The notes under the pieces are model-generated. The model did not search any database. It worked only from the letters and a program-made list of their open reading frames with translations, and had not been told where the DNA came from. DNA of 64,000 bases from Escherichia phage UPEC06. The stretch lies in the sequence record MW250786. The stretch is one strand, 5' to 3'. A program made the translations under genes and the position numbers. Position 1 is the first letter of the stretch, and the number at the start of each line of letters is the position of its first letter. Of this stretch, positions 20,737 through 62,907 are shown piece after piece.

Positions 20737-20877
20737 CTAGACTAAAACAAAGCCCAGCCGGAGGTATTACCCTTCGGCTAGGTTATCAAAAGTGCAGGTA
20801 TCCTTCATCAATAAAGTAAAGCATAACTAAAATAGCGAATACCCCACCTAAGAAGATTAAACCCAGTAAAGTAGGCA

Positions 20878-21123: not shown

Positions 21124-21605
21124 TCCTCTTCTGTTTGTTCATACTCGGAAGGGGTGATGAAGTAATTCTGACCCCGCTTGCACTGGTTGAAAGTCCCAAT
21201 ATACCAAGTGCCGATATCCATATTGATGAAAGTTTCTTCGTGAACAAGGATGAAATCAGCAAGATTATTGTCTGACCGTTGAGTTGCTAATAAAATATGC
21301 TCAAAATCTGCTAATGTCATGTTGTAACAGAAACCATCTTCGTCCTCCATAACCGCAACAACAGAACTACGCCCTTGAGTGAATTGACGAAACTGTAAAC
21401 GTAAATGACGATGTTCATGTTCATTCGTCTTCACCTTTTTCCGATTTTCGAAATATTCTTCGGAATAATTTGGATGCCTTAATTTCAGCTTTTCGATCTC
21501 TTCGGTAGAAAGAGCATCCTTATCCCAACCAGTAAACCATTTACCGTTATCATTAAATACCGCAGGGTATTTACGCTTACTCAAATCTTTAAACATTTGA
21601 ATCAT
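21117..21605 (-). CDS. hypothetical protein
   Basis: 162-aa ORF, overlapping neighbours. Confidence 0.5.
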   Translation of the reverse strand: MIQMFKDLSKRKYPAVFNDNGKWFTGWDKDALSTEEIEKLKLRHPNYSEEYFENRKKVKTNEHEHRHLRLQFRQFTQGRSSVVAVMEDEDGFCYNMTLADFEHILLATQRSDNNLADFILVHEETFINMDIGTWYIGTFNQCKRGQNYFITPSEYEQTEEDW

Positions 21606-21975
21606 CTCCTTCAGCTAGGCTACGAATATACTTGAAAATTTCTTCATGATCATTACCAAATGCAACATATCCATTTTCAGCATCAAGTCCATAATTATGC
21701 TCTATTTTCTCTAAAAAGCAATTTCCGTAAGTAATTTTTTCAACCAGGGGATCGGATTCTGAAAAACCCAACCCAAAAGCTTTCCAGTGCTCACGTTTAA
21801 GCTCCACGTATTCCCACGGTTTATCTCCATCGTGGAATAACACAAGGGTGTCTTGATCTTTCTTTTCTACATTGACATGACCATAAAATCCACTGGGCGA
21901 TTTGTTAAATTTCATAATCTTCTCCGTAAATATCTTTAATTTTTGAACTGAGGTATCCAGGATCGCTACCATCAT
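21589..21975 (-). CDS. hypothetical protein
   Basis: 128-aa ORF. Confidence 0.45.
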   Translation of the reverse strand: MMVAILDTSVQKLKIFTEKIMKFNKSPSGFYGHVNVEKKDQDTLVLFHDGDKPWEYVELKREHWKAFGLGFSESDPLVEKITYGNCFLEKIEHNYGLDAENGYVAFGNDHEEIFKYIRSLAEGDDSNV

Positions 21976-22237
21976 ACCACACTTCTACGAAAACCTTTTG
22001 GGAATCCTTCACGATCTTTGCCCCTGCTCTTTCAACCTCCTTGAAGAAAGATTGCAAGATGTGATCATCTAACAGGTTTACCCCATAAGCATCGTGGAGG
22101 GATTTTTCATCGTGAACATACACAACCATCTTACCATCATACGTAACTTGAATGTAATGGTCATCTTCCCAAGTAATAGCCGGAGAATCCGGCTCAAGCT
22201 TTGCAATAACACCAATAGTCAATCGGTTGTCACTCAC
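21905..22237 (-). CDS. hypothetical protein
   Basis: 110-aa ORF; overlaps neighbour by ~70 nt, start may be internal. Confidence 0.4.
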   Translation of the reverse strand: MSDNRLTIGVIAKLEPDSPAITWEDDHYIQVTYDGKMVVYVHDEKSLHDAYGVNLLDDHILQSFFKEVERAGAKIVKDSQKVFVEVWYDGSDPGYLSSKIKDIYGEDYEI

Positions 22238-23451
22238 TCTTTACCCCCTGCGATGCGTAACATTTGGATAGTTTTCTCCAGTTCTTTACGAGGTTTGGCA
22301 ACTAAACGACGTTCGTGTCGCTTCAGGAAGCCTTCTAAGAACTCTAACGGTTTAAAGGATAACACTTCCTGTACTGATTCGTCAACAGCATACTCTTTCT
22401 GGACCATACGATAAACCGGATTTTTTACAGTTACAGGAGTATAACCCTTACTGATCGCCATTTGGGTAACAACACGCTTCTTGCCATCGGTCCATGAGTC
22501 ATCGATCGGGAAAGAATCTTTGCCGTATTTTTCAGAGAATAACTTAACTGCTGTTTTTGTCAAGTCATCCTGATCCTCTTGTGACCGACTTTGACCCCAA
22601 TAATAGCCACCAGAGGTCTTAGCACGACGTTCTGAGAACAAAGCAAGGTCATCGTACTGCTCAAGAGCCAAACGCGCCAGAAGCTCGATATCGTCGCTTT
22701 CTGACAGTAGTCGGTTTGCTTCGTACTTAACCTCAAAAGTATTTGCACTATCACGATCACGGTCGAGAGTAAAAGCTTCCGGCTTAAAGTCATAATCGAA
22801 TTTAAAATTGCCTGGAACACGAGTAACGAACAGTCCATTTACAAACAGGTTGCAGTCACCACCTGTGATAGATCCATCCTCTTCTTCATTTTGGTATTCG
22901 TCCGCAGCATTATACAGTTTAGTATAAGCTTTGCCGCGATCATTCTGAATAACGACTGTACGTTCAGTGGTTGGCGCATAGTTATTCATAATTTCAGACA
23001 TAGCACAATGAGGGATGTTTTCAATGATCACAGTTACAGTATTTGAATCACGGCCTGACAAAGCCTTTTCATGGATATCTACCGCCAAAATATTCTGTTC
23101 GTATACTGTATCATAAACCATATTTGGAATCCAAAGATCATTACCATTTTCGATAACAATGTCTGCACCTTCACGAACAAGCACCAGAAGACCTACTTTC
23201 AGACCTTCACCAAACTTACCGATCTTGCTGTCATCATCACGTTTGGTTGAAACACCCATCAAAAGGCCGGAAACGGGAACAACACCGCCACGAGAGATGA
23301 TTGTGATCTTACCTTGATTACTATCATCTTTACTAAAATAAATATTGAAATCTTCTGTATCGATAGCATTTTGCATTAGTTCACGAGCACCTTGCCACCA
23401 TGACCAGTGACTGACGTAATTTTCAGTGATGCTCAATTTAATCTGTTTCAT
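22234..23451 (-). CDS. putative GHKL-type (Bergerat-fold) ATPase domain protein
   Basis: N-box-like RELMQNAIDT (ExxxNxxD) near N-terminus and Gly-rich IGKFGEGLKVG; motif-level only. Confidence 0.4.
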   Translation of the reverse strand: MKQIKLSITENYVSHWSWWQGARELMQNAIDTEDFNIYFSKDDSNQGKITIISRGGVVPVSGLLMGVSTKRDDDSKIGKFGEGLKVGLLVLVREGADIVIENGNDLWIPNMVYDTVYEQNILAVDIHEKALSGRDSNTVTVIIENIPHCAMSEIMNNYAPTTERTVVIQNDRGKAYTKLYNAADEYQNEEEDGSITGGDCNLFVNGLFVTRVPGNFKFDYDFKPEAFTLDRDRDSANTFEVKYEANRLLSESDDIELLARLALEQYDDLALFSERRAKTSGGYYWGQSRSQEDQDDLTKTAVKLFSEKYGKDSFPIDDSWTDGKKRVVTQMAISKGYTPVTVKNPVYRMVQKEYAVDESVQEVLSFKPLEFLEGFLKRHERRLVAKPRKELEKTIQMLRIAGGKE

Positions 23452-23463
23452 TTATTTGCCCTC

Positions 23464-24180
23464 TTATTTGTTGTATTGATAAATTGCTTCAGCCAAGCCC
23501 CGTGGGGTTAATGACCGGATCATCTTAGTTCTTGCTGACTTACCCCCCAACTTATTCTGCTGATCTGACCAACCAGGTGCAACAGGAACCGGAGAGGTTT
23601 TTGGAATTATAAACCCATTCCCTGTCCAAAGTCCAGTCTTTTTAGGATAAGCATCCCGTGGTTTAATGTACTGAGGAAAATAAGGGTTAACATCATTTAC
23701 CGGAAGATAACCACCATATTCCCAAGGGTTGAAATATACCGTAGGCTTTCGCCATTGTCCAGCTAAAACACTAACGGGGTTCTCGATCATGTAAGGACAA
23801 TCAAAAACAAATTCCGCAAGCCAAGCTGCAATCTTTGCAGTTCTTACCGCCTTGATCTGGAAGAAAGGATCTTTTGCTTTCTTTGATGCAAAGTGACGCG
23901 AACCACTGACAGCCATATCAGTACATGGAGGGTAGGCAAGGATCAGGTCCGGTGATGGCAATCCTAAGTTCTCTACATTTTCCATCCATTCAATATCGAT
24001 AAAAGCGTTAACGTAAGTGATGTTGGGATGAATTTCCTTTACACCTTCATAATCCCCGTGATCAGCATCGTCATAGTTGAAGCAGTAGCATTTGTGCCCT
24101 GCCTTCGCCCAGGGAAGAACATCAATCCCTGAACCAGAAAAGAGACTCCAGATAATCTTTTTATTCATCGTAGCATCCAA
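23464..24180 (-). CDS. short DNA cytosine-C5 methyltransferase-like protein (no obvious TRD)
   Basis: Motif I-like LFSGSGI (FxGxG), motif IV-like PPCT (PCQ variant), motif VI-like ENP; only 238 aa. Confidence 0.45.
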   Translation of the reverse strand: MDATMNKKIIWSLFSGSGIDVLPWAKAGHKCYCFNYDDADHGDYEGVKEIHPNITYVNAFIDIEWMENVENLGLPSPDLILAYPPCTDMAVSGSRHFASKKAKDPFFQIKAVRTAKIAAWLAEFVFDCPYMIENPVSVLAGQWRKPTVYFNPWEYGGYLPVNDVNPYFPQYIKPRDAYPKKTGLWTGNGFIIPKTSPVPVAPGWSDQQNKLGGKSARTKMIRSLTPRGLAEAIYQYNK

Positions 24181-24473
24181 ATAGTGGTTAATTTACAAAT
24201 ACACCAGAAAAGTCCGATCAGTGTAGCTAAAGTAATAACACAAGTCAATGCTATAGGTAAGAATATCGTCATAATCACTGCAAAGACTGAAATACCTATG
24301 CTTGCAATAAGATCCGGCACGAAATAGTGAAATGGATCTCTTGCCTTTTTAATGTTGTCCCATGTTATTACTACGGAGCTAAGGACGAGCCAGAATAAAA
24401 AGTACAAAATGCAAGGAAATAAAGTCATGTGTGACTTAACCATATCAAACCACATGTTGTAGAATTCAATCAT
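24165..24473 (-). CDS. small membrane protein
   Basis: 102 aa, 3 hydrophobic helices. Confidence 0.45.
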   Translation of the reverse strand: MIEFYNMWFDMVKSHMTLFPCILYFLFWLVLSSVVITWDNIKKARDPFHYFVPDLIASIGISVFAVIMTIFLPIALTCVITLATLIGLFWCICKLTTIWMLR

Positions 24474-24793
24474 TCAGTTTTCCTCGGTACAGATGCAATA
24501 ACAGCCTTTTCGACGAGATATACAATAAATCTCCCAATCCCTGCCAAAAGGAGAGCAAAGACTGTAAAAGGCAACCCATAAATAAGAACCAAAATCATCA
24601 ATCCAAAACAAGCGGAAAACAGGACTTCTGTGCCCAGCCACATCTTGGAGTAATTGATATAATTATGCCGCAATTTTAAAAACAGTCCAGCAATAGAACC
24701 TACAGAAAATATACCAATCAACCAAGGTGCGGTTACAAATTGACGGCTAAACGCCTCCCAAAAAACAAAAACATTAATGATTGCTTCGATCAT
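24470..24793 (-). CDS. small membrane protein
   Basis: 107 aa, 3 hydrophobic helices. Confidence 0.45.
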   Translation of the reverse strand: MIEAIINVFVFWEAFSRQFVTAPWLIGIFSVGSIAGLFLKLRHNYINYSKMWLGTEVLFSACFGLMILVLIYGLPFTVFALLLAGIGRFIVYLVEKAVIASVPRKTE

Positions 24794-25044
24794 AAACCAT
24801 ACCTCACTTCATATAAGAATTCATCAAGATCTTTACTGTCGTCTGAACCTTCTACTGTCAGTGGCATCAGATGTTCTTTAAGATAATAGCAAAGATTGCC
24901 GGAACTTGTTTCTACTAAACATGTTGTTTTGCAAACCATTTTAACCCTTACCGATAGTCCGGCATCTTCATGGCTGTGGACCATTGCAAGGCAACCATCG
25001 TAAAGCTTATCCTCATAAGGTAAGCAAGGATCTGGATTTTTCAT
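24790..25044 (-). CDS. hypothetical protein
   Basis: 84-aa ORF. Confidence 0.4.
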   Translation of the reverse strand: MKNPDPCLPYEDKLYDGCLAMVHSHEDAGLSVRVKMVCKTTCLVETSSGNLCYYLKEHLMPLTVEGSDDSKDLDEFLYEVRYGL

Positions 25045-25445
25045 TGGGAACCTTCCTCCTCTGCATATGCAATCTTAGTCATGTATTCAATACATTCACA
25101 CTGGACATTGTGGCTATTAAAAACAGCCTTGTCGTTGTAAATAACTTGCCAATAGTCAATGCTTTCAATTTCGGAAAGGTATGCAACACACTCCCCTTTT
25201 GGATTAATAAGTTCAACTCGATCAGTTTCTCGTAATTTCCAACCAGTAGGCAACTGAACAGCTTGTTCCTTAAAAATCATAATATCGTCACGGTGACCAG
25301 TAAATCTTTTAAATGCTCGCAGTAATTCTTTGTATTCACGATACTTCACATAGAGGCCATCCTCTGATTTTTCCATACGGGCTTCATTGATATTGCAATT
25401 ACCATCCATATCCCCAACAAGGTCATAACGATATACAGGTTTCAT
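25041..25445 (-). CDS. hypothetical protein
   Basis: 134-aa ORF. Confidence 0.45.
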   Translation of the reverse strand: MKPVYRYDLVGDMDGNCNINEARMEKSEDGLYVKYREYKELLRAFKRFTGHRDDIMIFKEQAVQLPTGWKLRETDRVELINPKGECVAYLSEIESIDYWQVIYNDKAVFNSHNVQCECIEYMTKIAYAEEEGSQ

Positions 25446-25654
25446 TTTTTAACTTTCTCCTTTTTCTCAGGTTTTACATCGCAAACTTTTTGTTGGTAAC
25501 TGATCGGTGTTACATAGCGCCACGTCTTTTTAAGGTTCTCAACGAGGATTCTCATTTGTTCCTCATCAGCACCCCAGCCTGCGGTATGTGCTATTTCATC
25601 AACACTCATTTGGCATTTAACATACCATCTTGTAACTGTCTTCGATTGTATCAT
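25442..25654 (-). CDS. hypothetical protein
   Basis: 70-aa ORF. Confidence 0.4.
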   Translation of the reverse strand: MIQSKTVTRWYVKCQMSVDEIAHTAGWGADEEQMRILVENLKKTWRYVTPISYQQKVCDVKPEKKEKVKK

Positions 25655-25680
25655 TAGTGTTTCCTTGAGGTCAAGAAATT

Positions 25681-25977
25681 TTATTCAATACCGAGTTCTT
25701 TTGCACTGTAAATATCGTTACCTTCATAACCTTTGTAGTAGATCAGAATATCTTTGACAATCTCTCCTGTCGGTCCGCTCCGGCGGGTACGTGGTCGTGG
25801 TGAGTTTACCAAATAAACTTCACGACGAGTATTTATTTTTGTTGTACGGTGACCTTCGACGAAGGTCAATGTTGTATATGCAGGAACCTTGACAAGAACC
25901 TCTACCTGGTCACCAGCCGTATTCTGTTGTTCATTTGCCATATCGTCTTTAACAACAGTAATCATAAGTTTGGTCAT
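25681..25977 (-). CDS. hypothetical protein
   Basis: 98-aa ORF. Confidence 0.4.
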   Translation of the reverse strand: MTKLMITVVKDDMANEQQNTAGDQVEVLVKVPAYTTLTFVEGHRTTKINTRREVYLVNSPRPRTRRSGPTGEIVKDILIYYKGYEGNDIYSAKELGIE

Positions 25978-25979
25978 TT

Positions 25980-26243
25980 TTATTCTCCCTTGTTCAATGT
26001 GGATACAAATTCGATATATGTTTCTGCATTTCGCTTATGGTAAATCCGAGGATAGCTGTCGGTTACTTTGCTGTATTTGATGTATCGCTCAAGCATACCG
26101 ACAATGCCACCAATGGAATGCACAACAACGCCTTCTTCACCAACAAAGGTAACAACCTCTACGAATGGACTATTGTCATAAGAGCGATTTACAATCAGGT
26201 CGCCGACTTCAAATTCGATTTTATCATTTTGTGAGTAGTGCAT
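25980..26243 (-). CDS. hypothetical protein
   Basis: Track ORF 25980-26663 trimmed to ATG 26243 (MHYSQND) with GGAGA RBS; longer form overlaps helicase and a terminator. Confidence 0.45.
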   Translation of the reverse strand: MHYSQNDKIEFEVGDLIVNRSYDNSPFVEVVTFVGEEGVVVHSIGGIVGMLERYIKYSKVTDSYPRIYHKRNAETYIEFVSTLNKGE

Positions 26244-54706: not shown

Positions 54707-54958
54707 ATGTTCGAACAAATCAAAACTACAACGGCTAACGTAACGGGTACAGTATCTCACTTCATTAGTGATGAATCGCGGGGCGTTCCTTATTGTGCGG
54801 TGCATGTAAACAAAAATGGCGACTACTGGTTAACGGCGTATGGATCTTATTCTTTCGGACGTAGTGCACACCAAAAGATCCTGGATAAAGTGCAGCCAAC
54901 GGGTAAAAATATTACCGCTGAAATGTTTAATAAATCACTTGCAAAGTTAAAAGCGTAA
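54707..54958 (+). CDS. hypothetical protein
   Basis: 83-aa ORF after TTGACA/TAAATT promoter and GCGGGAACACTTCCCGC hairpin. Confidence 0.5.
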   Translation: MFEQIKTTTANVTGTVSHFISDESRGVPYCAVHVNKNGDYWLTAYGSYSFGRSAHQKILDKVQPTGKNITAEMFNKSLAKLKA

Positions 54959-55259
54959 AGTATAATATATCACATCAGGCGGGGAGTGTTTCCCCGTCAC
55001 AAAATGAAAGGTTAACAAAATGAAAGCAAGCATGATGGTAGCGACTGTAAACATTATCATTGGTAACGGAACTGGACACCACGAAATCATAAAAAACAAG
55101 GCTTACTCTATTAGCTCCCTCAAAAACGACATGCGTTTATCTTTGGGCCAAATCCGCGCTTACTTTCGTGAAGGCTATCAGAAAAAAGTAGCAAATTAAT
55201 AGTTGACGCAAAGGTCATTTTAATTTAATCTATAACAAATCGACAAATGAGGCATAATC

Positions 55260-55562
55260 ATGTTTACCAAAGCAAATGAGTATTTCTTTTTAGATTCACT
55301 TGACGAAAGTATCTTTGTAGCTATGGGCAAAAAGTCAATGGTCTTTAAACGCAAAAAAGATAATGGTGACTTTGAAGATAGCGAAGCCGTGCTAACAGTC
55401 AAGGAAGGTAAAGAACCTGCTACGTCTGTTTTAATCTATACCTTGACCAACGGCGGTGAAGTTATCGCATCAGGTAGTAGCCATCCGATCCCAAAATCGG
55501 AAGTGAACACTGTAATTATTGGTTTTGTTGCAGCTTGTTTCTACGAGGAAAAAAGCAAATGA
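55260..55562 (+). CDS. hypothetical protein
   Basis: 100-aa ORF after TTGACG promoter-like site. Confidence 0.5.
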   Translation: MFTKANEYFFLDSLDESIFVAMGKKSMVFKRKKDNGDFEDSEAVLTVKEGKEPATSVLIYTLTNGGEVIASGSSHPIPKSEVNTVIIGFVAACFYEEKSK

Positions 55563-55723
55563 ATCCGCAAAATTTATCTTATGTAAATTGGCCCAATAAG
55601 GCTGAGAAGAAAGAAAACTTGAAACGTCTGGTTAACTTTTATCGTGAAGCTGATCATAGTAAAGTAACAGCGGTTAAAATGGCAAAGCGCCACCTTAACA
55701 AGCCAGGTACTAAACTAATTTAA
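55559..55723 (+). CDS. hypothetical small basic protein
   Basis: Start set to ATG 55559 (MNPQN), ATGA overlap with upstream stop. Confidence 0.4.
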   Translation: MNPQNLSYVNWPNKAEKKENLKRLVNFYREADHSKVTAVKMAKRHLNKPGTKLI

Positions 55724-55794
55724 AAACTTGTTGACGTTGGCTTGTGCCGTACCTATAATGGACGGCATAGGCAAACGAAATAGGATTTATAGAA

Positions 55795-56001
55795 ATGAAA
55801 AAGAAAATTGTATATAACTTTGTTAGCTTTATTGCGACTACCCTCCTGGCTATTGCAGGGCTATCTTTAATCGTCGCCGTAGGATCTTTGTTTCCTGGGG
55901 CAATAGGTATTAGCATAGCTTTCGCTGCATTGTCTGTTTTTACAGGCTATGCAGGGATTAAAGTTATTTACTGGTCAGAAGATTATAAATATTCAAACTA
56001 A
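55795..56001 (+). CDS. small two-TM membrane protein
   Basis: 68 aa, two hydrophobic helices; after TTGACG-N-TATAAT promoter. Confidence 0.5.
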   Translation: MKKKIVYNFVSFIATTLLAIAGLSLIVAVGSLFPGAIGISIAFAALSVFTGYAGIKVIYWSEDYKYSN

Positions 56002-56391
56002 ATTGAGGTGTAAGGTGTATAAATTATTGGCCTGGGAAACAGAATCATCGTCACCGATCAGCCGGACCTTTTTTGATTTGTGCACGGCTTACAAGCTGGC
56101 AAAGGGAGGATATCATAAGGCCCAGATCATTGATGAATTTAATGTTATCCTTTATGAATTTTAATTAATTCATGCACTTAAAAGAAAGTTATAAAAAGTT
56201 TTAAAAAGTAGTTGCAACAAACATTGGGTAGTAGTATAGTACTTTCAACGGGGCGAGATAGCCCAAAACGAAAAAACTTGAAAGGTGATTATCATGATGG
56301 CAATTTTCTTAGTTTCTCTTCTGGTCGCTGTATGTTCTGCCACTGCTGCCGCTGTACTTTACGATACACGTTACAATGAGGAATAATAAAA

Positions 56392-56610
56392 ATGAATATT
56401 GTCAACATTACAGGAAAAACTGAACTCCTTAAAAATCTTGCACCAGGTGAATCAACTGTATGGATCTGTAACAATGGAGAAGTAGAAAAACAGATGAGAT
56501 TGTTTACCGCCATTTGTTGTCGGCTGAATATGAAGGTCACACAAATCCGATCGATGATTGTTAGTGTGGGAAACATTCCGACTGAATGCATAATTCTTAC
56601 AAAGATTTAA
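56392..56610 (+). CDS. hypothetical protein
   Basis: 72-aa ORF. Confidence 0.45.
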   Translation: MNIVNITGKTELLKNLAPGESTVWICNNGEVEKQMRLFTAICCRLNMKVTQIRSMIVSVGNIPTECIILTKI

Positions 56611-56686
56611 AAATAGCTTTACAACAACGATAAAATCAGTACAATACAAATCAGGCAATAAAGCCGACTAAAGAAAGGTAAAGACC

Positions 56687-56926
56687 ATGCAAACTATTAT
56701 CACTAAATTTCTTCCTCCTACTAATACCCGTGGCGCTCGCATCAAAGCAAAATGTTGGTTGACAGATATCACTATCGCCTATCCGGTAGCCGAGATCAAC
56801 GAAGCCCATAAACTGGCGGCAGAAGTGTTAATTACAAAATTGAAGATGACAACAGATATTGATTGGAATATCGTTGCAAGCGGTGAAACACCGGACGGCA
56901 GCGGCTACGCTTTCATTATCAAATAA
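56687..56926 (+). CDS. hypothetical protein
   Basis: 79-aa ORF with RBS. Confidence 0.45.
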   Translation: MQTIITKFLPPTNTRGARIKAKCWLTDITIAYPVAEINEAHKLAAEVLITKLKMTTDIDWNIVASGETPDGSGYAFIIK

Positions 56927-56935
56927 TCATAAAGC

Positions 56936-56954
56936 GGCGGGAATAGTTCCCGCC
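56936..56954 (+). other. intercistronic leader stem-loop (GCGGGAA-tag-TTCCCGC) without promoter
   Basis: 8-bp GC-rich stem between stop of upstream ORF and RBS of next ORF; same family as promoter-linked hairpins. Confidence 0.5.
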
Positions 56955-56980
56955 TTATTAAAGAGAAAAGAGAAGATATC

Positions 56981-57259
56981 ATGACTATTACTAAATTATC
57001 CACCGAAGAGATCACCAACATTCTGACTACTAATCTTGGAGATTGGAAGCGTGAAGCTGATTTGCAAGCAACCTGTAAACTGAATACAGAGCTAACATCA
57101 GACGATATTGAAACGATCGTCCATGCTGATTTCTATGATGCTTTGCATGATGATTCTATCGTCCTTGAAACGTTGTTAGATAATGCCTGGATCAATCCCG
57201 ATTTGGCGGCGTATGGTCATAGCGCCTTTGTTACTATCCACAATATTTATAACCGTTAA
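56981..57259 (+). CDS. hypothetical protein, paralogue of 58733-59011 product
   Basis: MTITKLSTEEITNILTTNLGDWKREADLQ aligns with MTIAKLSAEEIEQVLTTNLEQWKREADIQ. Confidence 0.55.
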   Translation: MTITKLSTEEITNILTTNLGDWKREADLQATCKLNTELTSDDIETIVHADFYDALHDDSIVLETLLDNAWINPDLAAYGHSAFVTIHNIYNR

Positions 57260-57269
57260 GAGGTGATAA

Positions 57270-57533
57270 GTGGCCCTTTCAACAACAAATAAAGTAATTG
57301 GTGTTATCCCTGGGAGATCAATCAAGGTTGGCGATCTCATACGCTTACAAGTTGCTTCCTTTCCTGGTCCGGCTTATGATTTTTGTCATACCGTTGCGAT
57401 TCAAGAGAATCCGCATGATGTTAACCTCATGGTGATTTGGTACAAGCTGGCAAATGGTCAACTTTGCGAGGATATCATAGGGAAAGATGAGGCGTTCAAT
57501 ATTATGTACCAAAACGGCCCGCTAACGGCCTAA
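57270..57533 (+). CDS. hypothetical protein, paralogue of 59255-59482 product
   Basis: GTG start with AAGAGGTGA RBS; shared PxYDFC...VIWY...DIxGxDE pattern. Confidence 0.5.
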   Translation: MALSTTNKVIGVIPGRSIKVGDLIRLQVASFPGPAYDFCHTVAIQENPHDVNLMVIWYKLANGQLCEDIIGKDEAFNIMYQNGPLTA

Positions 57534-57630
57534 AACGGCGAAAGTATGCAATCACCTTACTTGATACTATTCTACGCCCTGGCTTATCCTGGGGCTTTTG
57601 ATTGGGGTAGAAAATAATTCGAAAAAGTAG

Positions 57631-57687
57631 TTGACGGCAATTAACACTATGGTAAAGTGTACCCCGTAGGGCGGCAATAGCGCCGCT
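57631..57687 (+). promoter_or_regulatory. promoter-stem-loop cassette (GTAGTTGACG + GGGCGGCAATAGCGCCGCT hairpin)
   Basis: As other cassettes; approx coords. Confidence 0.55.
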
Positions 57688-58045
57688 CACTGAAAAAGGG
57701 TAAAATCATGTTAGAAAAAATTTTCACGGTTGTAATCTTAGGTTTAACATTCTTTGTAGGAGTAACTGCAACGATGGCTAATATGATTTTATCTTTCAAT
57801 GGTATTGGTTAAGAGGAAACAACAAATGAAAACTTTCAACGCAACAGCCTCAACAATTGGCTATATTATTACAGTACAGGCCGTGGATCTGGTAGCGGCG
57901 GCAAACAAGATTAAAAAAATGATTCCGACAGATAGCAAATTTTCCGTATGGGAAGTCAAATAATCCTTGACAGTAATTTATTATCTGGTAAAGTCTATTA
58001 TGTAGGGCGGCAATAGTGCCGCTGATAACCGAAGAGAAACAACAA

Positions 58046-58219
58046 ATGATCCCAACTATCTTTTACATATCTCGCAAAGGCATCAACATCCATTGGATGG
58101 AAGATTTAGAGCAAGCTATAGAGTATGCCCGTGGTCGTGTCGCTATCGGCGGCGTAGATATCACCGTTACCGATGAGAACGGGATCGAGTATTATAACAG
58201 CGAAGAAGAAGACTACTAA
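58046..58219 (+). CDS. hypothetical small protein
   Basis: Start set to ATG 58046 (MIPTIF) after promoter, GGCGGCAATAGTGCCGC hairpin and RBS. Confidence 0.45.
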   Translation: MIPTIFYISRKGINIHWMEDLEQAIEYARGRVAIGGVDITVTDENGIEYYNSEEEDY

Positions 58220-58263
58220 TCAACAGGGCGGCAAGAATGCCGCCATATAAAGGAATAAATGAA

Positions 58264-58650
58264 ATGAAACAAGAAATCATCAATACAATTATCGACGGTT
58301 ACAAAGAAGCCTTTATTTTCGCTGAATCAGCAACGGATCAGTACGGGGAGCATATCGATAACCTTGATCCTTATGACTTCTCCCAGGACGCAAACGACCG
58401 GATCGCCCAGGATGTAACAGCCTTCATTAATGCCAATATCGCCGTTATATCTGAGGCAATGTCTGACGGTGCAACAGCGATCCAGATAGGGAATGATTTA
58501 CATCTTACACGCAACGGTCACGGCGTAGGATTTTGGGATCGTCCTGAGATATACACCACGGATACGGGTAACCGTTTGAGTAATGCCGCTAAATTAATGC
58601 CTAACGTGTCAGCTTACATTGGGAAAGATAATCTGATTTATATTGAATAA
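58264..58650 (+). CDS. hypothetical protein
   Basis: Start set to ATG 58264 (MKQEII) after RBS; track start 58237 lies in loop of hairpin GGGCGGCAAGAATGCCGCC. Confidence 0.45.
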   Translation: MKQEIINTIIDGYKEAFIFAESATDQYGEHIDNLDPYDFSQDANDRIAQDVTAFINANIAVISEAMSDGATAIQIGNDLHLTRNGHGVGFWDRPEIYTTDTGNRLSNAAKLMPNVSAYIGKDNLIYIE

Positions 58651-58656
58651 AAAGTA

Positions 58657-58712
58657 TTGACAAGCTGAATCAACCTGATAAGATGTATCACATAGGGGCG
58701 ACAAGCGCCCCG
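58657..58712 (+). promoter_or_regulatory. promoter-stem-loop cassette (TTGACA-16-TAAGAT + GGGGCGACAAGCGCCCC hairpin)
   Basis: As other cassettes; approx coords. Confidence 0.55.
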
Positions 58713-58732
58713 CCTAACAGAGAGATAGAATC

Positions 58733-59011
58733 ATGACCATCGCCAAATTATCCGCTGAAGAAATCGAACAAGTGTTAACTACTAACCTGGAACAATGGAA
58801 ACGTGAGGCAGATATACAATCAGCACAATGGCTTAACGAGAAGTTAACACCGGATGATCTGAGTAAGATTATAGATCCTCAATTCTATGAAGATATTCAC
58901 GACACGGCGTTATCCGTTGAGGATGTACTCGATAAGCATTACATTGCTACTGATTTGCAGGTTTACGGGCGTAAAAACTTTATTACTATTCACGACATTT
59001 ACAATAACTAA
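58733..59011 (+). CDS. hypothetical protein, paralogue of 56981-57259 product
   Basis: See 56981-57259. Confidence 0.55.
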   Translation: MTIAKLSAEEIEQVLTTNLEQWKREADIQSAQWLNEKLTPDDLSKIIDPQFYEDIHDTALSVEDVLDKHYIATDLQVYGRKNFITIHDIYNN

Positions 59012-59046
59012 GGGCGGCAACGCCCTACAACTAAAAGGGTAATATT

Positions 59047-59241
59047 ATGACGTTAGCAACATGTACCGGATCAAAAATTGCTTGCTTTGAGTTTATGGAA
59101 GACTACCACACGACCGCAATCACTAACCAATATATTACAGTGATCACGCGTGACGGTATCGCCTGGCATGTTCCGGTTTATGATGGGGATACCTATGAAG
59201 TCACCGATAGCGACGGCAATACAGCTATCTTTGTTGTCTAA
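59047..59241 (+). CDS. hypothetical protein
   Basis: 64-aa ORF after GGGCGGCAACGCCC hairpin and RBS. Confidence 0.45.
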   Translation: MTLATCTGSKIACFEFMEDYHTTAITNQYITVITRDGIAWHVPVYDGDTYEVTDSDGNTAIFVV

Positions 59242-59254
59242 GGGGGGAAACACT

Positions 59255-59482
59255 ATGCACAATAACATCATTACCGATCGTGCCGCTACTATGCGCCCTG
59301 GCGATCGGGCACGTTTACAGATCGGCGCTTATCCGTTCCCTACTTATGACTTTTGCAAAGTAACCGCTATCGAAAACAATCCGTTCGAACCTGATACCGT
59401 GATCGTATGGTATGAAGGAAGAGGTAATAAATTTGAAGACATTTTGGGGCGAGATGAGTTATTGAATATTCTACGTTATTAA
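59255..59482 (+). CDS. hypothetical protein, paralogue of 57270-57533 product
   Basis: Start set to ATG 59255 (MHNNII) after AAGGGGGG RBS. Confidence 0.5.
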   Translation: MHNNIITDRAATMRPGDRARLQIGAYPFPTYDFCKVTAIENNPFEPDTVIVWYEGRGNKFEDILGRDELLNILRY

Positions 59483-59600
59483 TCGCCGTCTAACAGCCTT
59501 AAGCCTGTTAAGCTATGCAACCCCCTACCTTGTCCAATCGTCGCGCCCTGGTTTATGCTGGGGCGTTCTACGTTACAGCAAAATAATTTTAAAAATACGC

Positions 59601-59659
59601 TTGACGCTCGCCAGGTGAGCGGGTATATTTTATCACGTAGGGCGGCAATAGTGCCGCTC
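59601..59659 (+). promoter_or_regulatory. promoter-stem-loop cassette (TTGACG-17-TATATT + GGGCGGCAATAGTGCCGCT hairpin)
   Basis: As other cassettes; approx coords. Confidence 0.6.
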
Positions 59660-59679
59660 ACTGAAAAAGGTAAATCAGC

Positions 59680-59871
59680 ATGAAAACTATCACCTATCTG
59701 GAATCGAATAATAAATTTTTTGCCCCTGTTGATGAAATCATCGAAGCCCTGGCAAACGGTGAGGGTGTAAATGGCTTGCCTCATGCTCAATTAGTCGGAC
59801 TTGTCAAGGCAAACAAAGAATTAGCCTACTATGTAGAAAACTTTGAAACAGCAGTTATATTTACAAAATAA
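59680..59871 (+). CDS. hypothetical protein
   Basis: 63-aa ORF after cassette. Confidence 0.45.
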   Translation: MKTITYLESNNKFFAPVDEIIEALANGEGVNGLPHAQLVGLVKANKELAYYVENFETAVIFTK

Positions 59872-59951
59872 AGGTTGTATTCATTCCGCAACTGGTTTAT
59901 ATTATTTGTGTAGGGCGGCAATAGTGCCGCTCACTGACTGGAGCTATCATT

Positions 59952-60353
59952 ATGGCCTTTACAATCACCTCTTACACTGACGTTGCCAACATTGCTAAAA
60001 CTTTCGGCCCTGAAGCCCTTAAGTATGCGGTATCCAATGGTAAACTAACGAAAGAGCAATGTTACCTGATTGGAAGCTGTAAACGTTGGGCGGCATCTCG
60101 TAACATCGAGATTGAAAACGTAAATGATGGTAACATCGAGTATAGCGTTGATGCAGTATTCAAGGCCGTGTATTTGGGCGGTATCTATAATACCAACCTT
60201 AATGATGTGCGTATCGTTCGCACTGGTTTTGGGGCTTATGATGTTCCAGTTCGCGAAGCTATGGAAAAAGGTTATATTAATCCAGCTATTTTAAGTATGA
60301 TCATGACTGAGGCCAAAGAACGTAACGAAGTACGGGCCATCCTGGGCCTGTAA
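59952..60353 (+). CDS. hypothetical protein
   Basis: 133-aa ORF after GTAGGGCGGCAATAGTGCCGCTCACTGA element. Confidence 0.5.
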   Translation: MAFTITSYTDVANIAKTFGPEALKYAVSNGKLTKEQCYLIGSCKRWAASRNIEIENVNDGNIEYSVDAVFKAVYLGGIYNTNLNDVRIVRTGFGAYDVPVREAMEKGYINPAILSMIMTEAKERNEVRAILGL

Positions 60354-60451
60354 TGAAATATTAACAGAAAACTATTGACACGGATCGTCAATATGCTAAT
60401 ATTTATCACGTAGGGCGGCAATGGTGCAGCCCACTGGAAAAGGTAAAAATC

Positions 60452-60697
60452 ATGTACCAGACAACTAAAATTGGCAATATCTATCACGATCCTAAAAACT
60501 CACGCGGTACAGCCTGGATCAAGATGCCCAACAACGTTTGGTACTATGCATTAAAAGGCAATACCTTGATGGGCAATCGTTGGAAGTGGATTAAAGAAAA
60601 TAACAACATTATTAACGATGAAAAAATCCAAGAAATGGTAGCAACGGGTAAGGTTGTAATGCAAGAAAACACCGACCGCCTTACTCGTCAATTTTAA
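60452..60697 (+). CDS. hypothetical protein
   Basis: 81-aa ORF after TTGACA promoter and degenerate hairpin. Confidence 0.45.
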   Translation: MYQTTKIGNIYHDPKNSRGTAWIKMPNNVWYYALKGNTLMGNRWKWIKENNNIINDEKIQEMVATGKVVMQENTDRLTRQF

Positions 60698-60706
60698 TAT
60701 CAATAA

Positions 60707-60722
60707 GGGGCGGCAACGCCCC
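60707..60722 (+). other. intercistronic stem-loop with GNRA-type loop (GGGGCG-GCAA-CGCCCC)
   Basis: 6-bp GC stem, GCAA tetraloop, between ORFs and upstream of RBS. Confidence 0.5.
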
Positions 60723-60745
60723 ACCTCGACCAAAGAGAAACAATA

Positions 60746-60952
60746 ATGAGTATTGCAGCGATTAGCTCATCCGACATTAAAAAGGCTTTATCTGTGTTGC
60801 GCTATCACCACCACAGGAAAGTAATCAACGATGAGAGCTATCTAGATTCATCGTTAGAAAGCGATACGTTGGAAGCCATTTCAAAATTATCCGATTTACA
60901 TAAACGCATGACCGAAAGCAACCGATCCGACTTCATAGGGGGCGAAATATGA
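60746..60952 (+). CDS. hypothetical protein
   Basis: 68-aa ORF. Confidence 0.45.
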   Translation: MSIAAISSSDIKKALSVLRYHHHRKVINDESYLDSSLESDTLEAISKLSDLHKRMTESNRSDFIGGEI

Positions 60953-61209
60953 GCATTGCAATGTTAATTAATGCGGTAGAAGAGGCAAAAGCATTAAAGC
61001 TATGTGTTGAACTGATTGATCAACCAGGCGGCGATCTCCTTGTCCAAATTTATCCCCAAAAGGATTATTCTGGCGCTTATAGTTGGTGCTACTCTGACAC
61101 GTTCGGACAAGTAGACATTAAAGCAATAACATCGTTTATCAACAGGGCCATACTTGAGCAAACGATAGAGATTAACGGAATGTTAAAAACACCCTGGCAC
61201 ATTTACTAA
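60949..61209 (+). CDS. hypothetical protein
   Basis: 86-aa ORF, ATGA overlap. Confidence 0.45.
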   Translation: MSIAMLINAVEEAKALKLCVELIDQPGGDLLVQIYPQKDYSGAYSWCYSDTFGQVDIKAITSFINRAILEQTIEINGMLKTPWHIY

Positions 61210-61216
61210 GTTCGAT

Positions 61217-61246
61217 AAAAGGGCTTGACTTGTTCGGCCCTTTTTT
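61217..61246 (+). terminator. Rho-independent terminator
   Basis: AGGGC-loop-GCCCT stem followed by TTTTTT. Confidence 0.55.
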
Positions 61247-61385
61247 GCTATTCTTATCAAACGGGCGGCAACTGGGGACAGGGGAAGGTAATCACCGGAA
61301 GACTTTGGCATATACTGATAGTAAATAACTATTAATACTCACCAAAAATAAAATAAAATTTATTAAATCTTTACAATTCTACGTA

Positions 61386-61680
61386 TTGACACCGGATCAC
61401 CGTTATATTATTATTTATCTCGTAGGGCAGCGAAGCAGTGATGCAAAGTAGTTACTCTATGATGTAAGTTCTGAGAAGTCGAATCCGATAAAGTATCAGA
61501 AAGTTTCTAAGTTTTCGAATCGTCCAGATGAAAAAGGCTGGCAAGTGTTGAGAAAGGGCACGTTGAGTAAGTCCCGAAAAGGGGCGCTCTTAGACACCTT
61601 CTACTGAGATTGCGATCAAAGTGTTAAACTGTGAGAAACAAAAAGAGTACCAGGAAAGAAAAAAAAAAGTTAAAAAGATT
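61386..61680 (+). other. promoter-driven non-coding leader / candidate small RNA locus
   Basis: TTGACA-N17-TATTAT promoter-like pair, then ~250 nt with no ORF above ~10 codons before the next promoter at ~61684. Confidence 0.3.
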
Positions 61681-61755
61681 ATTGACACAAAAGTAAGTTT
61701 TGTACTATTATCTATCTCGTAGGGCAAACATTCAAAACATTAAAAAGGGTACAAA

Positions 61756-62031
61756 ATGTTACAGCTTAACGCTAAATTAGACAAAGAAATCACTGAGTTT
61801 TGGGATATGGTAGTAGCTACAGATGTAGACGGTGTAGCAAGTCCTTACCTCAATAACATCGAGTATCACAATGTTGCAGCTATGAATGCAGAATATGCAG
61901 AAGAAGGCGGCGCGGATAAGTTTGCTAAAAGCAACGGTTTCACTGATGCTAATGATATGATGCAATCAGTATTGTGGCAAGCCCAGGAAGATTTTGAAGA
62001 AAAAACACTTGAATTCGCCAGACGTTCATAA
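61756..62031 (+). CDS. hypothetical acidic protein
   Basis: 91-aa ORF after TTGACA-N-TATTAT promoter-like pair. Confidence 0.5.
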   Translation: MLQLNAKLDKEITEFWDMVVATDVDGVASPYLNNIEYHNVAAMNAEYAEEGGADKFAKSNGFTDANDMMQSVLWQAQEDFEEKTLEFARRS

Positions 62032-62086
62032 TAGAATAATCAAACGGGCCGAGAGGCCCACTAACTGACCTAACAGGATTAATATC

Positions 62087-62356
62087 ATGAATCGCATCGA
62101 TCAGCTTAAAGTAGTTCAGCATATGGCTTACCGTATCCTTGAAGTCCAGAAGGGTAGCAAAAAAGAAGTATGCGAGAAAGCGTACAAGGTATTCAGCCAT
62201 AAATCTGACGATTGGAAATTACAGAAAGTTAAAAAGGCCGATATCCTGGGCTACCTTGAGGATGAGATCCGCCTTGCGGAGCAAAAACAGATTCGTCGTG
62301 ATGAGGCAGAACATAACCAGGCCTGGCAGGAGTGGTTTAAAGGGTATACTAAGTAA
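62087..62356 (+). CDS. hypothetical protein
   Basis: 89-aa ORF with RBS. Confidence 0.5.
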   Translation: MNRIDQLKVVQHMAYRILEVQKGSKKEVCEKAYKVFSHKSDDWKLQKVKKADILGYLEDEIRLAEQKQIRRDEAEHNQAWQEWFKGYTK

Positions 62357-62487
62357 TACTAAAACAGGGGCCATATGGCCCCTTTGTAAATATCCAATTA
62401 ATTTACAATTCTCCCTATTGACAGGCTAGTCAGTTTTGCACTATAGTTAAGTTCCTGGCAGCAAACAACAAAACAAAGGACAACAGC

Positions 62488-62907
62488 ATGAACATCAAAT
62501 CAAATAATCCGGCATACTCTTTCGATAACGCTTTTTGTCACGGTAGCGCCGCCAAAGGTTTTGAAATTGATGGTAAACTGGTTATCGTCAATGTTGATGG
62601 GGAAGAGGTTGCAGTTTATCCAGTGGCAGACGTTAAAAGCCGTTTACAGTGCCGCATGGACGTTAACGAATATCGCCTTGATCCGGTTCGTGTAGTTGCC
62701 TTAGTCCTGGAAGAAGAAATTAAAGCAATGCAGCATAGCAACAAGTTTATCGGTGATGCACAGGACAACATGAAAGTAAGCCGCCACAAAGTTAATGAAG
62801 CACTGAAAGATTTTGGCTTTAAAGACCTAGTTATTAAACGTGATGAAAAATTCCGCTTTCGTAATGATCTGGCAAATCGCTACTATGAAATCTATGAAGC
62901 ACTTTAA
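62488..62907 (+). CDS. hypothetical protein
   Basis: 139-aa ORF after TTGACA promoter-like site. Confidence 0.5.
   Translation: MNIKSNNPAYSFDNAFCHGSAAKGFEIDGKLVIVNVDGEEVAVYPVADVKSRLQCRMDVNEYRLDPVRVVALVLEEEIKAMQHSNKFIGDAQDNMKVSRHKVNEALKDFGFKDLVIKRDEKFRFRNDLANRYYEIYEAL

What the first reader, a model, noticed from the sequence alone, without database searches (positions are those of the whole stretch)
56981..59600. Duplicated two-gene module with a conserved downstream non-coding element
Gene pairs 56981-57259/57270-57533 and 58733-59011/59255-59482 are paralogous, with strong similarity for the first genes and weaker for the second. Each pair is followed by a similar ~60-nt element containing CGCCCTGG(C/T)TTAT(C/G)CTGGGGC (about 57570-57600 and 59545-59575), directly upstream of the next promoter-stem-loop cassette. 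This looks like a recent cassette duplication with divergence and an unexplained conserved 3' element (terminator-like, or a recombination or recognition site).
Basis: seen in the sequence. Interest (0 to 1): 0.45.

Follow-up and report, generated by a model that had tools for sequence, protein, structure and literature searches.

The report
Two-copy phage early-gene module with terminator
Two old, diverged copies of a small two-gene phage cassette sit 1.2 kb apart, each ending in a shared non-coding tail whose core is most likely an ordinary transcription terminator; this is normal cassette shuffling in phage early regions, apart from two short conserved boxes whose role is unknown.

Summary
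Gene A (56981-57259 vs 58733-59011) is 52% identical in protein. Gene B (57270-57533 vs 59255-59482) is 41% identical. The ~87-nt tails after each B gene align far beyond chance (0 of 2000 shuffles).

The copies are not a recent duplication. Third-codon identity is only 0.39-0.41. Both A types also occur as alternative alleles in single-copy modules of Phapecoctavirus phages. Close relatives carry 0, 1, partial or 2 modules. Rearrangement junctions lie in the neighbouring promoter/stem-loop cassettes, not in the tail.

The tail is non-coding, since no frame survives across relatives. It has three conserved blocks: CTAACAGCCTAA, ATGCAAT-CMCCTAC, and a sense-strand-only GC-rich hairpin followed by a T-run. 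The two spacers between them are as diverged as random sequence.

The same hairpin sits 6-33 nt after long ORFs in 16 unrelated phage contigs, so it is best read as the intrinsic terminator of the A-B operon. The two upstream boxes are under constraint, but I could not explain them. An anti-Shine-Dalgarno-like role was tested and was inconclusive.

A and B are clade-restricted proteins of unknown function. Overall this is an ordinary mosaic early region with one small open question.

The parts
56936..56954 (+). Promoter-less stem-loop (GGCGGGAATAGTTCCCGCC) between the upstream 79-aa gene and A1. Module 1 is therefore probably co-transcribed from the promoter at 56618-56645.
   Evidence: Sequence; fold -14.5 kcal/mol; promoter scan
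56981..57259 (+). Gene A1, 92 aa, acidic, predicted helical, function unknown (phrog_14947)
57270..57533 (+). Gene B1, 87 aa, GTG start 7 nt after the A1 stop. Small beta-barrel (SH3/Tudor-like) at modest confidence. A rare allele, found otherwise only in one metagenomic contig (L026).
57519..57534 (+). Element 1, block 1 (CCGCTAACGGCCTAAA). Overlaps the last codons and the stop of B1.
   Evidence: Alignment A2 columns 1-16, 75-94% identity between lineages
57546..57562 (+). Element 1, block 2 (ATGCAATCACCTTACTT). Its AUCACCU resembles the 16S rRNA 3' end (anti-Shine-Dalgarno-like).
   Evidence: Alignment A2 columns 29-45, 71-94% identity; duplex scan inconclusive
57576..57603 (+). Element 1, block 3: a 7-bp hairpin GCCCUGG/CUGGGGC (two G.U pairs, -10.6 kcal/mol) plus the tail TTTTGATT. 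Predicted intrinsic terminator of the A1-B1 transcript.
57631..57686 (+). Next promoter (TTGACG-16-TAAAGT) and cassette stem-loop (TAGGGCGGCAATAGCGCCGC). This promoter always travels with element 1 in relatives.
58657..58714 (+). Module 2 promoter (TTGACA-16-TAAGAT) and cassette stem-loop (TAGGGGCGACAAGCGCCCCGCC)
58733..59011 (+). Gene A2, 92 aa, paralog of A1 (52% identity)
59011..59241 (+). Insertion within module 2: a promoter-less stem-loop (59011-59026) plus a 64-aa gene (59047-59241, phrog_3249). Present in the window, A73 and A5-4; a gene of the same length sits between A and B in L038-type contigs (homology not tested).
59255..59482 (+). Gene B2, 75 aa, paralog of B1 (41% identity). 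This is the common allele (83-92% identical in relatives).
59487..59502 (+). Element 2, block 1 (CGTCTAACAGCCTTAA)
59515..59530 (+). Element 2, block 2 (ATGCAACCCCCTACCT)
59543..59574 (+). Element 2, block 3: a 10-bp hairpin GCGCCCUGGU-UUAU-GCUGGGGCGU (-16.1 kcal/mol) plus a weak T-tail (TTCTACGTT). Predicted terminator, possibly leaky.
59601..59657 (+). Next promoter (TTGACG-17-TATATT, with a GC-rich palindrome in its spacer) and cassette stem-loop

Best explanation
The window comes from a ~140-kb E. coli myovirus of the W70/LTH01/A73 group. In its early-gene region there is a small transcription module: gene A, gene B, a 3' trailer, and a terminator. This module is present twice, as two old and strongly diverged alleles. 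They were brought together, and are kept or lost, by recombination between the repeated promoter/stem-loop cassettes that flank nearly every early gene.

The 'conserved non-coding element' is the 3' untranslated trailer of the A-B transcript. Its last block is a sense-strand-specific GC-rich hairpin followed by a T-run. This most likely acts as a Rho-independent terminator, which ends the operon and insulates it from the strong promoter about 35 nt downstream.

Two further short boxes in the trailer (CTAACAGCCTAA and ATGCAAT-CMCCTAC) are under purifying selection. They probably act at the RNA level, but their role was not established.

Shown here: homology of the modules, the block-and-spacer conservation pattern, absence of coding potential, hairpin geometry, copy-number variation, and junction positions. 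Inferred: that termination actually occurs, that the boxes act at the RNA level, and the direction of lateral transfer.
For: Paralogy.

Old divergence:
- Nucleotide identity is 64% (A) and 54% (B); third-codon identity is 0.41 and 0.39.
- The A1-type and A2-type genes are alternative alleles in front of the same B2 plus element in Phapecoctavirus: phiWec179 and L011 (A1-type, 83%) versus PsgM04F and L037 (A2-type, 97%).

Copy number among relatives:
- W70: none.
- L026: one complete A1-B1-element module.
- LTH01: A1 plus the element, with B1 deleted.
- A5-4: the 64-aa gene, B2 and the element, with no A.
- A73: both modules, but B1 deleted.

Junctions lie in the cassette stem-loop.

Lateral exchange: the core DNA-polymerase region matches only five close relatives at the nucleotide level. 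The early region matches 111 Escherichia phage records, among them Phapecoctavirus genomes.

Trailer anatomy: the blocks are 71-100% identical between lineages, while the spacers are 25-58% identical (about 33% in most comparisons).

Hairpin:
- It folds only on the + strand.
- It is the only consensus structure found by RNAalifold.
- Free energy is -10.6 to -18.2 kcal/mol in intact copies.
- L026 carries a pair-preserving U.G to U-A change.
- Copy 1 passes the terminator scan.
- The same 20-mer class lies 6-33 nt after long same-strand ORFs in 16 unrelated IMG/VR contigs, 12 of them with at least 5 T in the next 8 nt.

Non-coding: every frame is broken or shifted in some lineage. There are no Rfam matches.
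Against: - The T-tract of copy 2 is poor (3 T in 8), and copy 2 fails the simple terminator scan, so termination there may be weak.
- The stem is invariant within the family, so there is no covariation support apart from one one-sided change.
- In A73 and LTH01 the hairpin is damaged (-3.9 and -8.2 kcal/mol) although gene A1 is still upstream.
- A plain terminator does not explain why two upstream boxes are conserved at fixed spacing.
- Other early genes in the window run straight from their stop codon into the next promoter without such a trailer.
- One B homolog (L045) has no element at all.
- No expression data were available.
Confidence: 0.6

Rival explanations
1. The trailer is a functional small RNA, either a 3'UTR-derived sRNA or a cis-regulatory RNA. 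Boxes 1 and 2 would be single-stranded seeds. In particular, the C-rich anti-Shine-Dalgarno-like box 2 (AUCACCU / AUCCCCU) would pair with ribosome-binding sites, for example that of its own B gene, or with host mRNAs. The hairpin would serve as its terminator and stabiliser.
For: - The pattern of conserved boxes, free spacers and a conserved terminator is what sRNA genes typically show.
- Box 2 differs between modules in the same sense as the B ribosome-binding sites: CACC with GAGGTGAT in module 1, CCCC with AAGGGGGG in module 2.
- The B RBS is the best duplex partner in module 2.
- AUGCAAU is mostly unpaired in predicted ensembles (0.74).
Against: - The B RBS ranks only 2nd-4th in the other lineages, and energies of -11 to -13 kcal/mol are no better than other sites.
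- C-rich sequence pairs with any Shine-Dalgarno sequence.
- There is only one independent covariation event.
- U-tails are short and interrupted, which is poor for Hfq binding.
- No promoter of its own was found.
- No consistent structure or accessibility was found.
- No Rfam family matches.
Confidence: 0.15
2. The element is a translated mini-ORF that starts at the invariant ATGCAA. It would act either as a leader-peptide-like attenuator controlling read-through of the hairpin, or as a small peptide. In the window both copies give 23-codon ORFs that run through the hairpin and stop at the conserved AAATAA.
For: - ATGCAA is invariant in all 13 copies.
- Both window copies encode exactly 23 codons.
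- Purine-rich Shine-Dalgarno-like sequence precedes the ATG in three of four lineages.
- The first codons (M-Q-S/P-P) are conserved.
Against: - ORF length is 5, 6, 7, 23, 28 or 33 codons depending on the lineage.
- +/-1 indels shift the frame, and the peptides are unrelated beyond residue 5.
- Shine-Dalgarno spacing is mostly too short (2-3 nt).
- No alternative antiterminator pairing was found.
Confidence: 0.07
3. The element is a DNA-level site. It could be a recombination linker or recognition sequence that mobilises the module, or an upstream regulatory site for the promoter that always accompanies it.
For: - The element and the following promoter are always linked in relatives.
- The B1 deletion in A73 and LTH01 ends exactly at the 5' edge of box 1.
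- A ~110-nt patch from the B2 3' end to the hairpin was swapped between the window and A73, although the flanks are 92-100% identical.
- Box spacing is fixed to +/-1 nt.
Against: - The mapped gain/loss junctions are in the cassette stem-loops, not in the element.
- The hairpin's G.U pairs make it strand- and RNA-specific.
- The element occurs once per module and nowhere else in these genomes.
- No inverted or direct terminal repeats flank the module.
Confidence: 0.1
4. The trailer is only residual sequence from the common ancestor of the two modules, with no function of its own beyond the hairpin.
For: Overall identity of the trailer (66%) is close to that of gene A (64%).
Against: Conservation is sharply patterned. 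The boxes are 71-94% identical while the adjacent spacers are about 33%, below even third-codon identity (0.39-0.41). The boxes also stay intact in lineages whose spacers were completely replaced.
Confidence: 0.08

Closest known systems
Rho-independent (intrinsic) transcription terminators of enterobacteria and their phages
   Same: A GC-rich hairpin (7-10 bp, -10.6 to -18 kcal/mol) immediately followed by T-rich sequence. It lies on the sense strand, a short distance after a stop codon and before the next promoter. The same hairpin sequence class is used at gene ends in 16 unrelated phage contigs.
   Different: The T-tract is short or interrupted, especially in copy 2. The hairpin is preceded by two conserved boxes at fixed spacing, which ordinary terminators do not need.
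PeSL cassettes (promoter-early stem-loop) of T4-type phages (Arbiol et al. 2010, PMC2839356; Comeau et al. 2014, PMC4122927)
   Same: The surrounding region is built from repeated sigma-70-like promoter plus GC-rich stem-loop units between small ORFan genes. Gene gain and loss between close relatives has its junctions inside these units. This matches what was described for RB49/phi1.
   Different: This is a different phage group (the W70/A73 group and Phapecoctavirus, not T4-like). The 3' element itself is not such a cassette: it has no promoter, occurs only after B genes, and has a different hairpin. Mini-circle formation was not tested.
Phage 'morons' / autonomous transcription units (own knowledge: Hendrix and colleagues' concept from lambdoid phages)
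   Same: Module 2 has its own promoter, genes and terminator, and is present or absent between otherwise similar genomes.
   Different: It sits in the early region of a virulent phage. Module 1 lacks its own promoter directly upstream.
3'UTR-derived small RNAs of enterobacteria (own knowledge, e.g. CpxQ, SroC)
   Same: Conserved short boxes upstream of an mRNA's own terminator, with variable linkers.
   Different: There is no evidence of processing or a stable RNA. The U-tail is weak, and no target was identified.

Membership tests
Intrinsic (Rho-independent) terminator | Stable GC-rich hairpin on the transcribed strand | tested here: met
   A 7-bp stem (-10.6 kcal/mol) in copy 1 and a 10-bp stem (-16.1) in copy 2. 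It folds only on the + strand because of two G.U pairs.
Intrinsic (Rho-independent) terminator | U/T-rich tract directly 3' of the stem | tested here: inconclusive
   Copy 1, TTTTGATT: 6 T in 8, passes the scan. Copy 2, GTTCTACG: 3 T in 8, fails the scan. Phapecoctavirus copies, GTTTTACG: 4 in 8.
Intrinsic (Rho-independent) terminator | Located after the stop codon of a co-oriented gene, before the next transcription unit | tested here: met
   42 nt (copy 1) and 60 nt (copy 2) after the B stop codons, and about 35 nt before the next -35 hexamer.
Intrinsic (Rho-independent) terminator | Transcripts actually end there | not testable with these tools
   No transcript data were available.
PeSL-type promoter/stem-loop cassette | Strong sigma-70-like promoter joined to a stem-loop upstream of a start codon | tested here: not met
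   The element contains only one weak (9/12), non-conserved promoter-like match at 57561. The neighbouring units at 57631-57686, 58657-58714 and 59601-59657 do meet this feature.
PeSL-type promoter/stem-loop cassette | Recombination junctions between relatives fall within the unit | tested here: not met
   This is not met for the element: the junctions in L026 and A73 lie in the cassette stem-loop downstream of it.
Recent tandem/segmental duplication | High nucleotide identity between copies, with synonymous sites not saturated | tested here: not met
   Identity is 64% (A) and 54% (B); third-codon identity is 0.41 and 0.39.
Paralogous protein family phrog_14947 (gene A) | Full-length match to the family profile | tested here: met
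   E 1.3e-37 and 4.9e-42, covering profile positions 2-91 of 91.
Protein-coding mini-gene / leader peptide | Open reading frame conserved in frame and length across homologs | tested here: not met
   In-frame stops at codons 6-8 in seven lineages, frameshifting indels, and no frame open in all copies.
Known RNA families (Rfam 15) | Covariance-model match at or near the gathering score | tested here: not met
   No gathering-level hit in the window. In 56600-59950 there were only two spurious hits, with E of 0.4 or more.
Hfq-type 3'UTR-derived sRNA | Stable processed RNA, long U-tail, defined target pairing | tested here: inconclusive
   The U-tail is short. Pairing of box 2 to the B ribosome-binding site is present but not distinctive. 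RNA stability is not testable here.

The most novel reading that the evidence does not exclude
The trailer is a new phage regulatory RNA. Its invariant AUGCAAU and its anti-Shine-Dalgarno-like box (tuned to each module's own B ribosome-binding site), together with box 1, would form a cis- or trans-acting element. It would control translation or stability of early transcripts, or read-through into the next cassette, rather than being a passive 3' UTR.
Probability: 0.15. Interest if true: 0.5.

Novelty: new member of a known kind. Interest (0 to 1): 0.27.

Why it matters
The main value is annotation and context.
- It shows that early-gene cassettes in the W70/A73 group and in Phapecoctavirus phages are shuffled at promoter/stem-loop units, in the way described for T4-type phages.
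- These cassettes are exchanged between two phage groups whose core genes are not alignable at the nucleotide level.
- What looks like a 'duplication' is two old alleles residing together.

These phages are used as therapy and biocontrol candidates, so it is useful to know that their early regions vary by whole cassettes: a 7.8-kb segment is absent from one close relative.

The only open biological question is the pair of constrained boxes in the B-gene trailer. If they turn out to be a regulatory RNA, it would be a small but new element in a poorly studied phage group.

Tried and rejected
1. **Mini-ORF.** A 23-codon ORF is present in both window copies. Rejected as a conserved gene because of stops and frameshifts in relatives.

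2. **Read-through extension of B2, or an antisense ORF.** These frames are open in several lineages but broken in A5-4, Wec179, L026, Wec190 and L038. They have no start codon, and the spacers are not conserved at the peptide level.

3. **Conserved secondary structure upstream of the hairpin.** RNAalifold finds none. The hairpins I drew by eye (spacer 1 pairing with box 2; box 1 pairing with flanking sequence) use different registers and partners in each lineage.

4. **Box 2 pairing with the B ribosome-binding site.** Present but not distinctive.

5. **Further copies of the element.**
   - None elsewhere in the window.
   - One place per record for each query in the phage database.
   - One extra contig in IMG/VR.
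   - Only chance hits in the JGI metagenome scan.

7. **Function of gene A.** The model is unusable (pLDDT 48).

8. **Other readings considered by eye only.**
   - Sigma-70 promoter inside the element, on either strand: only weak, non-conserved matches.
   - Lambda nut-like boxA/boxB: no boxA consensus in the sequence, and the T-run after the hairpin argues against it.
   - Antiterminator pairing with the terminator arms: none found.
   - tRNA-like: ARAGORN found nothing.

9. **Concerted evolution between the two copies.** Rejected. Each copy is closer to its counterpart in other phages than to its partner in the window.
Full report
**What the window is.** The region belongs to a ~140-kb E. 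coli myovirus. The best match in the phage collection is Escherichia phage A73 (94% identity over 69% of 56600-59900). Next are LTH01, A5-4 and A7_1, and many Phapecoctavirus records match in pieces at 80-87%. In the DNA-polymerase region of the window only W70, LTH01, A73, A7_1 and A5-4 match at the nucleotide level, and no Phapecoctavirus does. So the early-gene region studied here is shared laterally with a phage group whose core genome is otherwise not alignable.

The local architecture is a dense array of small + strand genes. Most are preceded by a sigma-70-like promoter and a GC-rich stem-loop of the type TAGGGCGGCAATAGTGCCGC. No tRNA and no Rfam family is present.

**Check of the observation.** All four ORFs are at the stated coordinates. 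A1/A2 are 52% identical over 91 residues (E 7e-34), and both are full-length members of phrog_14947. B1/B2 are 41% identical over 63 residues (E 3e-21).

The 20-mer GCCCTGGYTTATSCTGGGGC occurs exactly twice in the window, at 57576 and 59545, against 0.01 expected. The two post-stop tails align with a local score of 38, against 13.9 +/- 2.2 for dinucleotide shuffles (0 of 2000). The part upstream of the hairpin alone scores 19 against 11.2 +/- 1.9 (7 of 2000).

Two corrections apply. The element is about 87 nt long and begins at, or inside, the end of the B gene. Module 2 also carries an additional 64-aa gene (phrog_3249), with its own promoter-less stem-loop, between A2 and B2.

**Age and origin of the two copies.** Nucleotide identity between the modules is 64% (A) and 54% (B). 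Third-codon identity is 0.41 and 0.39, close to saturation, so the duplication is not recent.

The two A types also exist as alternative alleles at a single-copy locus in Phapecoctavirus:
- phiWec179 and IMG/VR contig L011 carry an A1-type gene (83% identical to A1).
- PsgM04F and L037 carry an A2-type gene (97% identical to A2).
- In all of these the A gene is followed by a B2-type gene and the element.

B1 is rare. It is found only in the window and in one metagenomic contig (95%).

Copy number among close relatives runs across the whole range:

| Phage / contig | Content |
|---|---|
| W70 | Lacks the entire window segment 54955-62786 |
| L026 | One complete A1-B1-element module, fused directly to the 133-aa gene |
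| LTH01 | A1 plus the element; B1 deleted |
| A5-4 | The 64-aa gene, B2 and the element; no A |
| A73 | Both modules; B1 deleted |
| Window | Two complete modules (the only such case found) |

Many Phapecoctavirus genomes, such as ASO2A, have A alone.

Aligning the junctions shows where the crossovers lie. L026 and A73 follow the window's post-element promoter up to the cassette stem-loop, then switch to the leader of a different downstream gene. The crossovers are therefore in the promoter/stem-loop cassettes, not in the element. This is the behaviour described for PeSL cassettes of T4-type phages (PMC2839356).

The most economical reading is this. One ancestral A-B-trailer module diverged into alleles that circulate in a shared early-gene pool. 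The window phage happens to carry two of them through cassette recombination. I cannot exclude an ancient in-situ duplication followed by exchange and loss.

**Anatomy of the 3' element.** I aligned ten copies from five lineages (alignment A2). The result is three conserved blocks separated by two unconstrained spacers:

| Segment | A2 columns | Sequence | Identity between lineages |
|---|---|---|---|
| Block 1 | 1-16 | C..CTAACAGCCTAAA | 75-94% |
| Spacer 1 | 17-28 | variable | 33-58% |
| Block 2 | 29-45 | ATGCAAT-CMCCTACYT | 71-94% |
| Spacer 2 | 46-57 | variable | 25-58% |
| Hairpin | 58-81 | see below | 83-100% |

The spacers are as diverged as random sequence and more diverged than synonymous positions of the flanking genes. 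The blocks are therefore under selection and are not mere residue of common ancestry.

The window's copy 2 and A73's copy 2 show this clearly. Their flanking genes are 92-98% identical and the sequence after the hairpin is 100% identical, yet their spacers are only 25-33% identical. A ~110-nt patch has been replaced by recombination while the blocks remained. Each window copy is closer to its counterpart in other phages than to the other window copy, so there is no concerted evolution.

**The element is not coding.** Both window copies happen to contain a 23-codon ORF, from the invariant ATGCAA to a conserved AAATAA. In relatives the same frame stops at codon 6-8 or runs to 28 or 33 codons, and a one-base indel shifts it. 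No other frame, on either strand, is open and in register in all copies. The frame that continues past the B2 stop codon is broken in A5-4, Wec179 and L026 and has no start codon.

**The hairpin.**
- On the + strand RNA, block 3 folds into a 7-bp stem (module 1 lineage, -10.6 to -12.3 kcal/mol) or a 10-bp stem with a UUAU tetraloop (module 2 and Phapecoctavirus, -14 to -18 kcal/mol).
- Two conserved G.U pairs make the structure sense-strand-specific.
- It is the only consensus structure RNAalifold finds. All seven core pairs are essentially invariant, so there is no covariation support within the family. L026 does carry a pair-preserving U.G to U-A change.
- It is followed by TTTTGATT in copy 1, which passes the terminator scan. 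Phapecoctavirus copies have GTTTTACG. Copy 2 of the window has a weaker GTTCTACG.

A pattern scan of IMG/VR for the hairpin found 16 unrelated contigs. In all of them a long same-strand open frame (75-1027 codons) ends 6-33 nt upstream. Twelve have at least 5 T in the following 8 nt, and the loop-closing pair varies C-G / A-T / G-C. This hairpin therefore behaves as an ordinary intrinsic terminator wherever it occurs.

I conclude, with moderate confidence, that block 3 terminates the A-B transcript and insulates it from the strong promoter about 35 nt downstream. Two points weaken this. The U-tract of copy 2 is weak, and the hairpin is damaged in the two genomes that have lost B1 (-3.9 and -8.2 kcal/mol).

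**The two upstream boxes.** I could not assign a function to them.
- They recur nowhere else in the window.
- They have no consistent pairing partners.
- They are not a promoter on either strand.
- They match no Rfam family.

One lead concerns box 2. It contains AUCACCU (module 1) or AUCCCCU (module 2), resembling the 16S rRNA 3' end. The B genes' ribosome-binding sites differ in the complementary sense (GAGGTGAT vs AAGGGGGG). An unbiased duplex scan of each operon found the B ribosome-binding site as the best partner in window module 2, but only 2nd-4th elsewhere, at energies no better than other sites. The idea is therefore neither supported nor excluded.

The element is not obligatory for B: one B homolog (L045) runs straight into the next gene. 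It is confined to about a dozen genomes of this clade.

**Verdict.** 'Recent duplication' and 'recombination site' are not supported. The finding is an ordinary example of mosaic, cassette-shuffled phage early genes. It leaves one small unexplained feature: two constrained boxes in the trailer.

Noticed in passing
window 51437, 57667, 58003, 58693, 59638, 59911 (and promoter-less variants at 56936, 58227, 59011): Repeated promoter plus stem-loop cassettes (TTGACR-16/17-TAnnnT, then TAGGGCGGCAATAGYGCCGC) precede most early genes. Rearrangement junctions in L026 and A73 fall inside the stem-loop. This is PeSL-like behaviour in a non-T4 phage group. I found no description of it for these phages in the papers searched.
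   Followed up: partly
window 54955-62786: This entire 7.8-kb block of small early genes, including both modules, is absent from the close relative W70. The flanks are 87-93% identical.
   Followed up: partly
window 56600-59900 vs 20000-26000: The early region shares 80-87% nucleotide identity with many Phapecoctavirus (Stephanstirmvirinae) phages. The DNA-polymerase region matches only five close relatives. This implies lateral exchange of early cassettes between phage subfamilies.
   Followed up: partly
L009, L013, L015-L019, L021-L025 (IMG/VR contigs): The identical or near-identical 20-nt hairpin GCCCTGGCTTATGCTGGGGC, with the same two G.U pairs, is used as a gene-end terminator in several unrelated phage or prophage contigs. 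It recurs in more independent contexts than I would expect for an exact 20-mer. Whether this is convergence or a travelling terminator was not examined.
   Followed up: partly
window 59605-59621: A GC-rich palindrome (CGCTCGCCAGGTGAGCG) lies in the spacer between the -35 and -10 of the promoter after element 2. Related palindromes occupy the same place in the Phapecoctavirus and A5-4 versions of this promoter. It looks operator-like.
   Followed up: no
L001 2160-2190 and L008 ~2480-2510 vs window 57260-57533: A73 and LTH01 have lost almost all of B1, leaving the remnant ATGGTCCTGTAA. The deletion ends exactly at the 5' edge of box 1. GGCCC occurs on both sides in the window sequence, so microhomology-mediated deletion is possible.
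   Followed up: no
window 59479-59502 and Phapecoctavirus counterparts (e.g. L005 ~2507-2535): In most B2-type copies, the B stop codon and box 1 together place TAA in all three reading frames within 22 nt (TAATCGCCNNCTAACAGCCTAA). B2, the B1-deletion remnant and B1 each use a different one of these stops. The window's own copy 2 has lost one of the three.
   Followed up: no
window 57546-57617 and 59515-59586: Both window copies of the element contain an intact 23-codon ORF (MQSPYLILFYALAYPGAFDWGRK and MQPPTLSNRRALVYAGAFYVTAK) spanning the hairpin. It is not conserved in relatives, so it is probably fortuitous.
   Followed up: yes
L038 1880-1935, L007 ~2483-2530: In the Wec190/L038 lineage, an insertion between the B stop codon and box 1 creates a direct repeat (GGCTGTA twice) and a perfect inverted repeat with box 1 (GGCTG...CAGCC). 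In window copy 2, box 1 instead pairs with a downstream CTGTTA. These are local inverted duplications around box 1.
   Followed up: no
L037 53-238: An early gene in the Phapecoctavirus-like contig upstream of the module carries a Pfam superinfection-immunity domain hit (PF14373). This hints that this early region holds host-interaction or exclusion functions.
   Followed up: no
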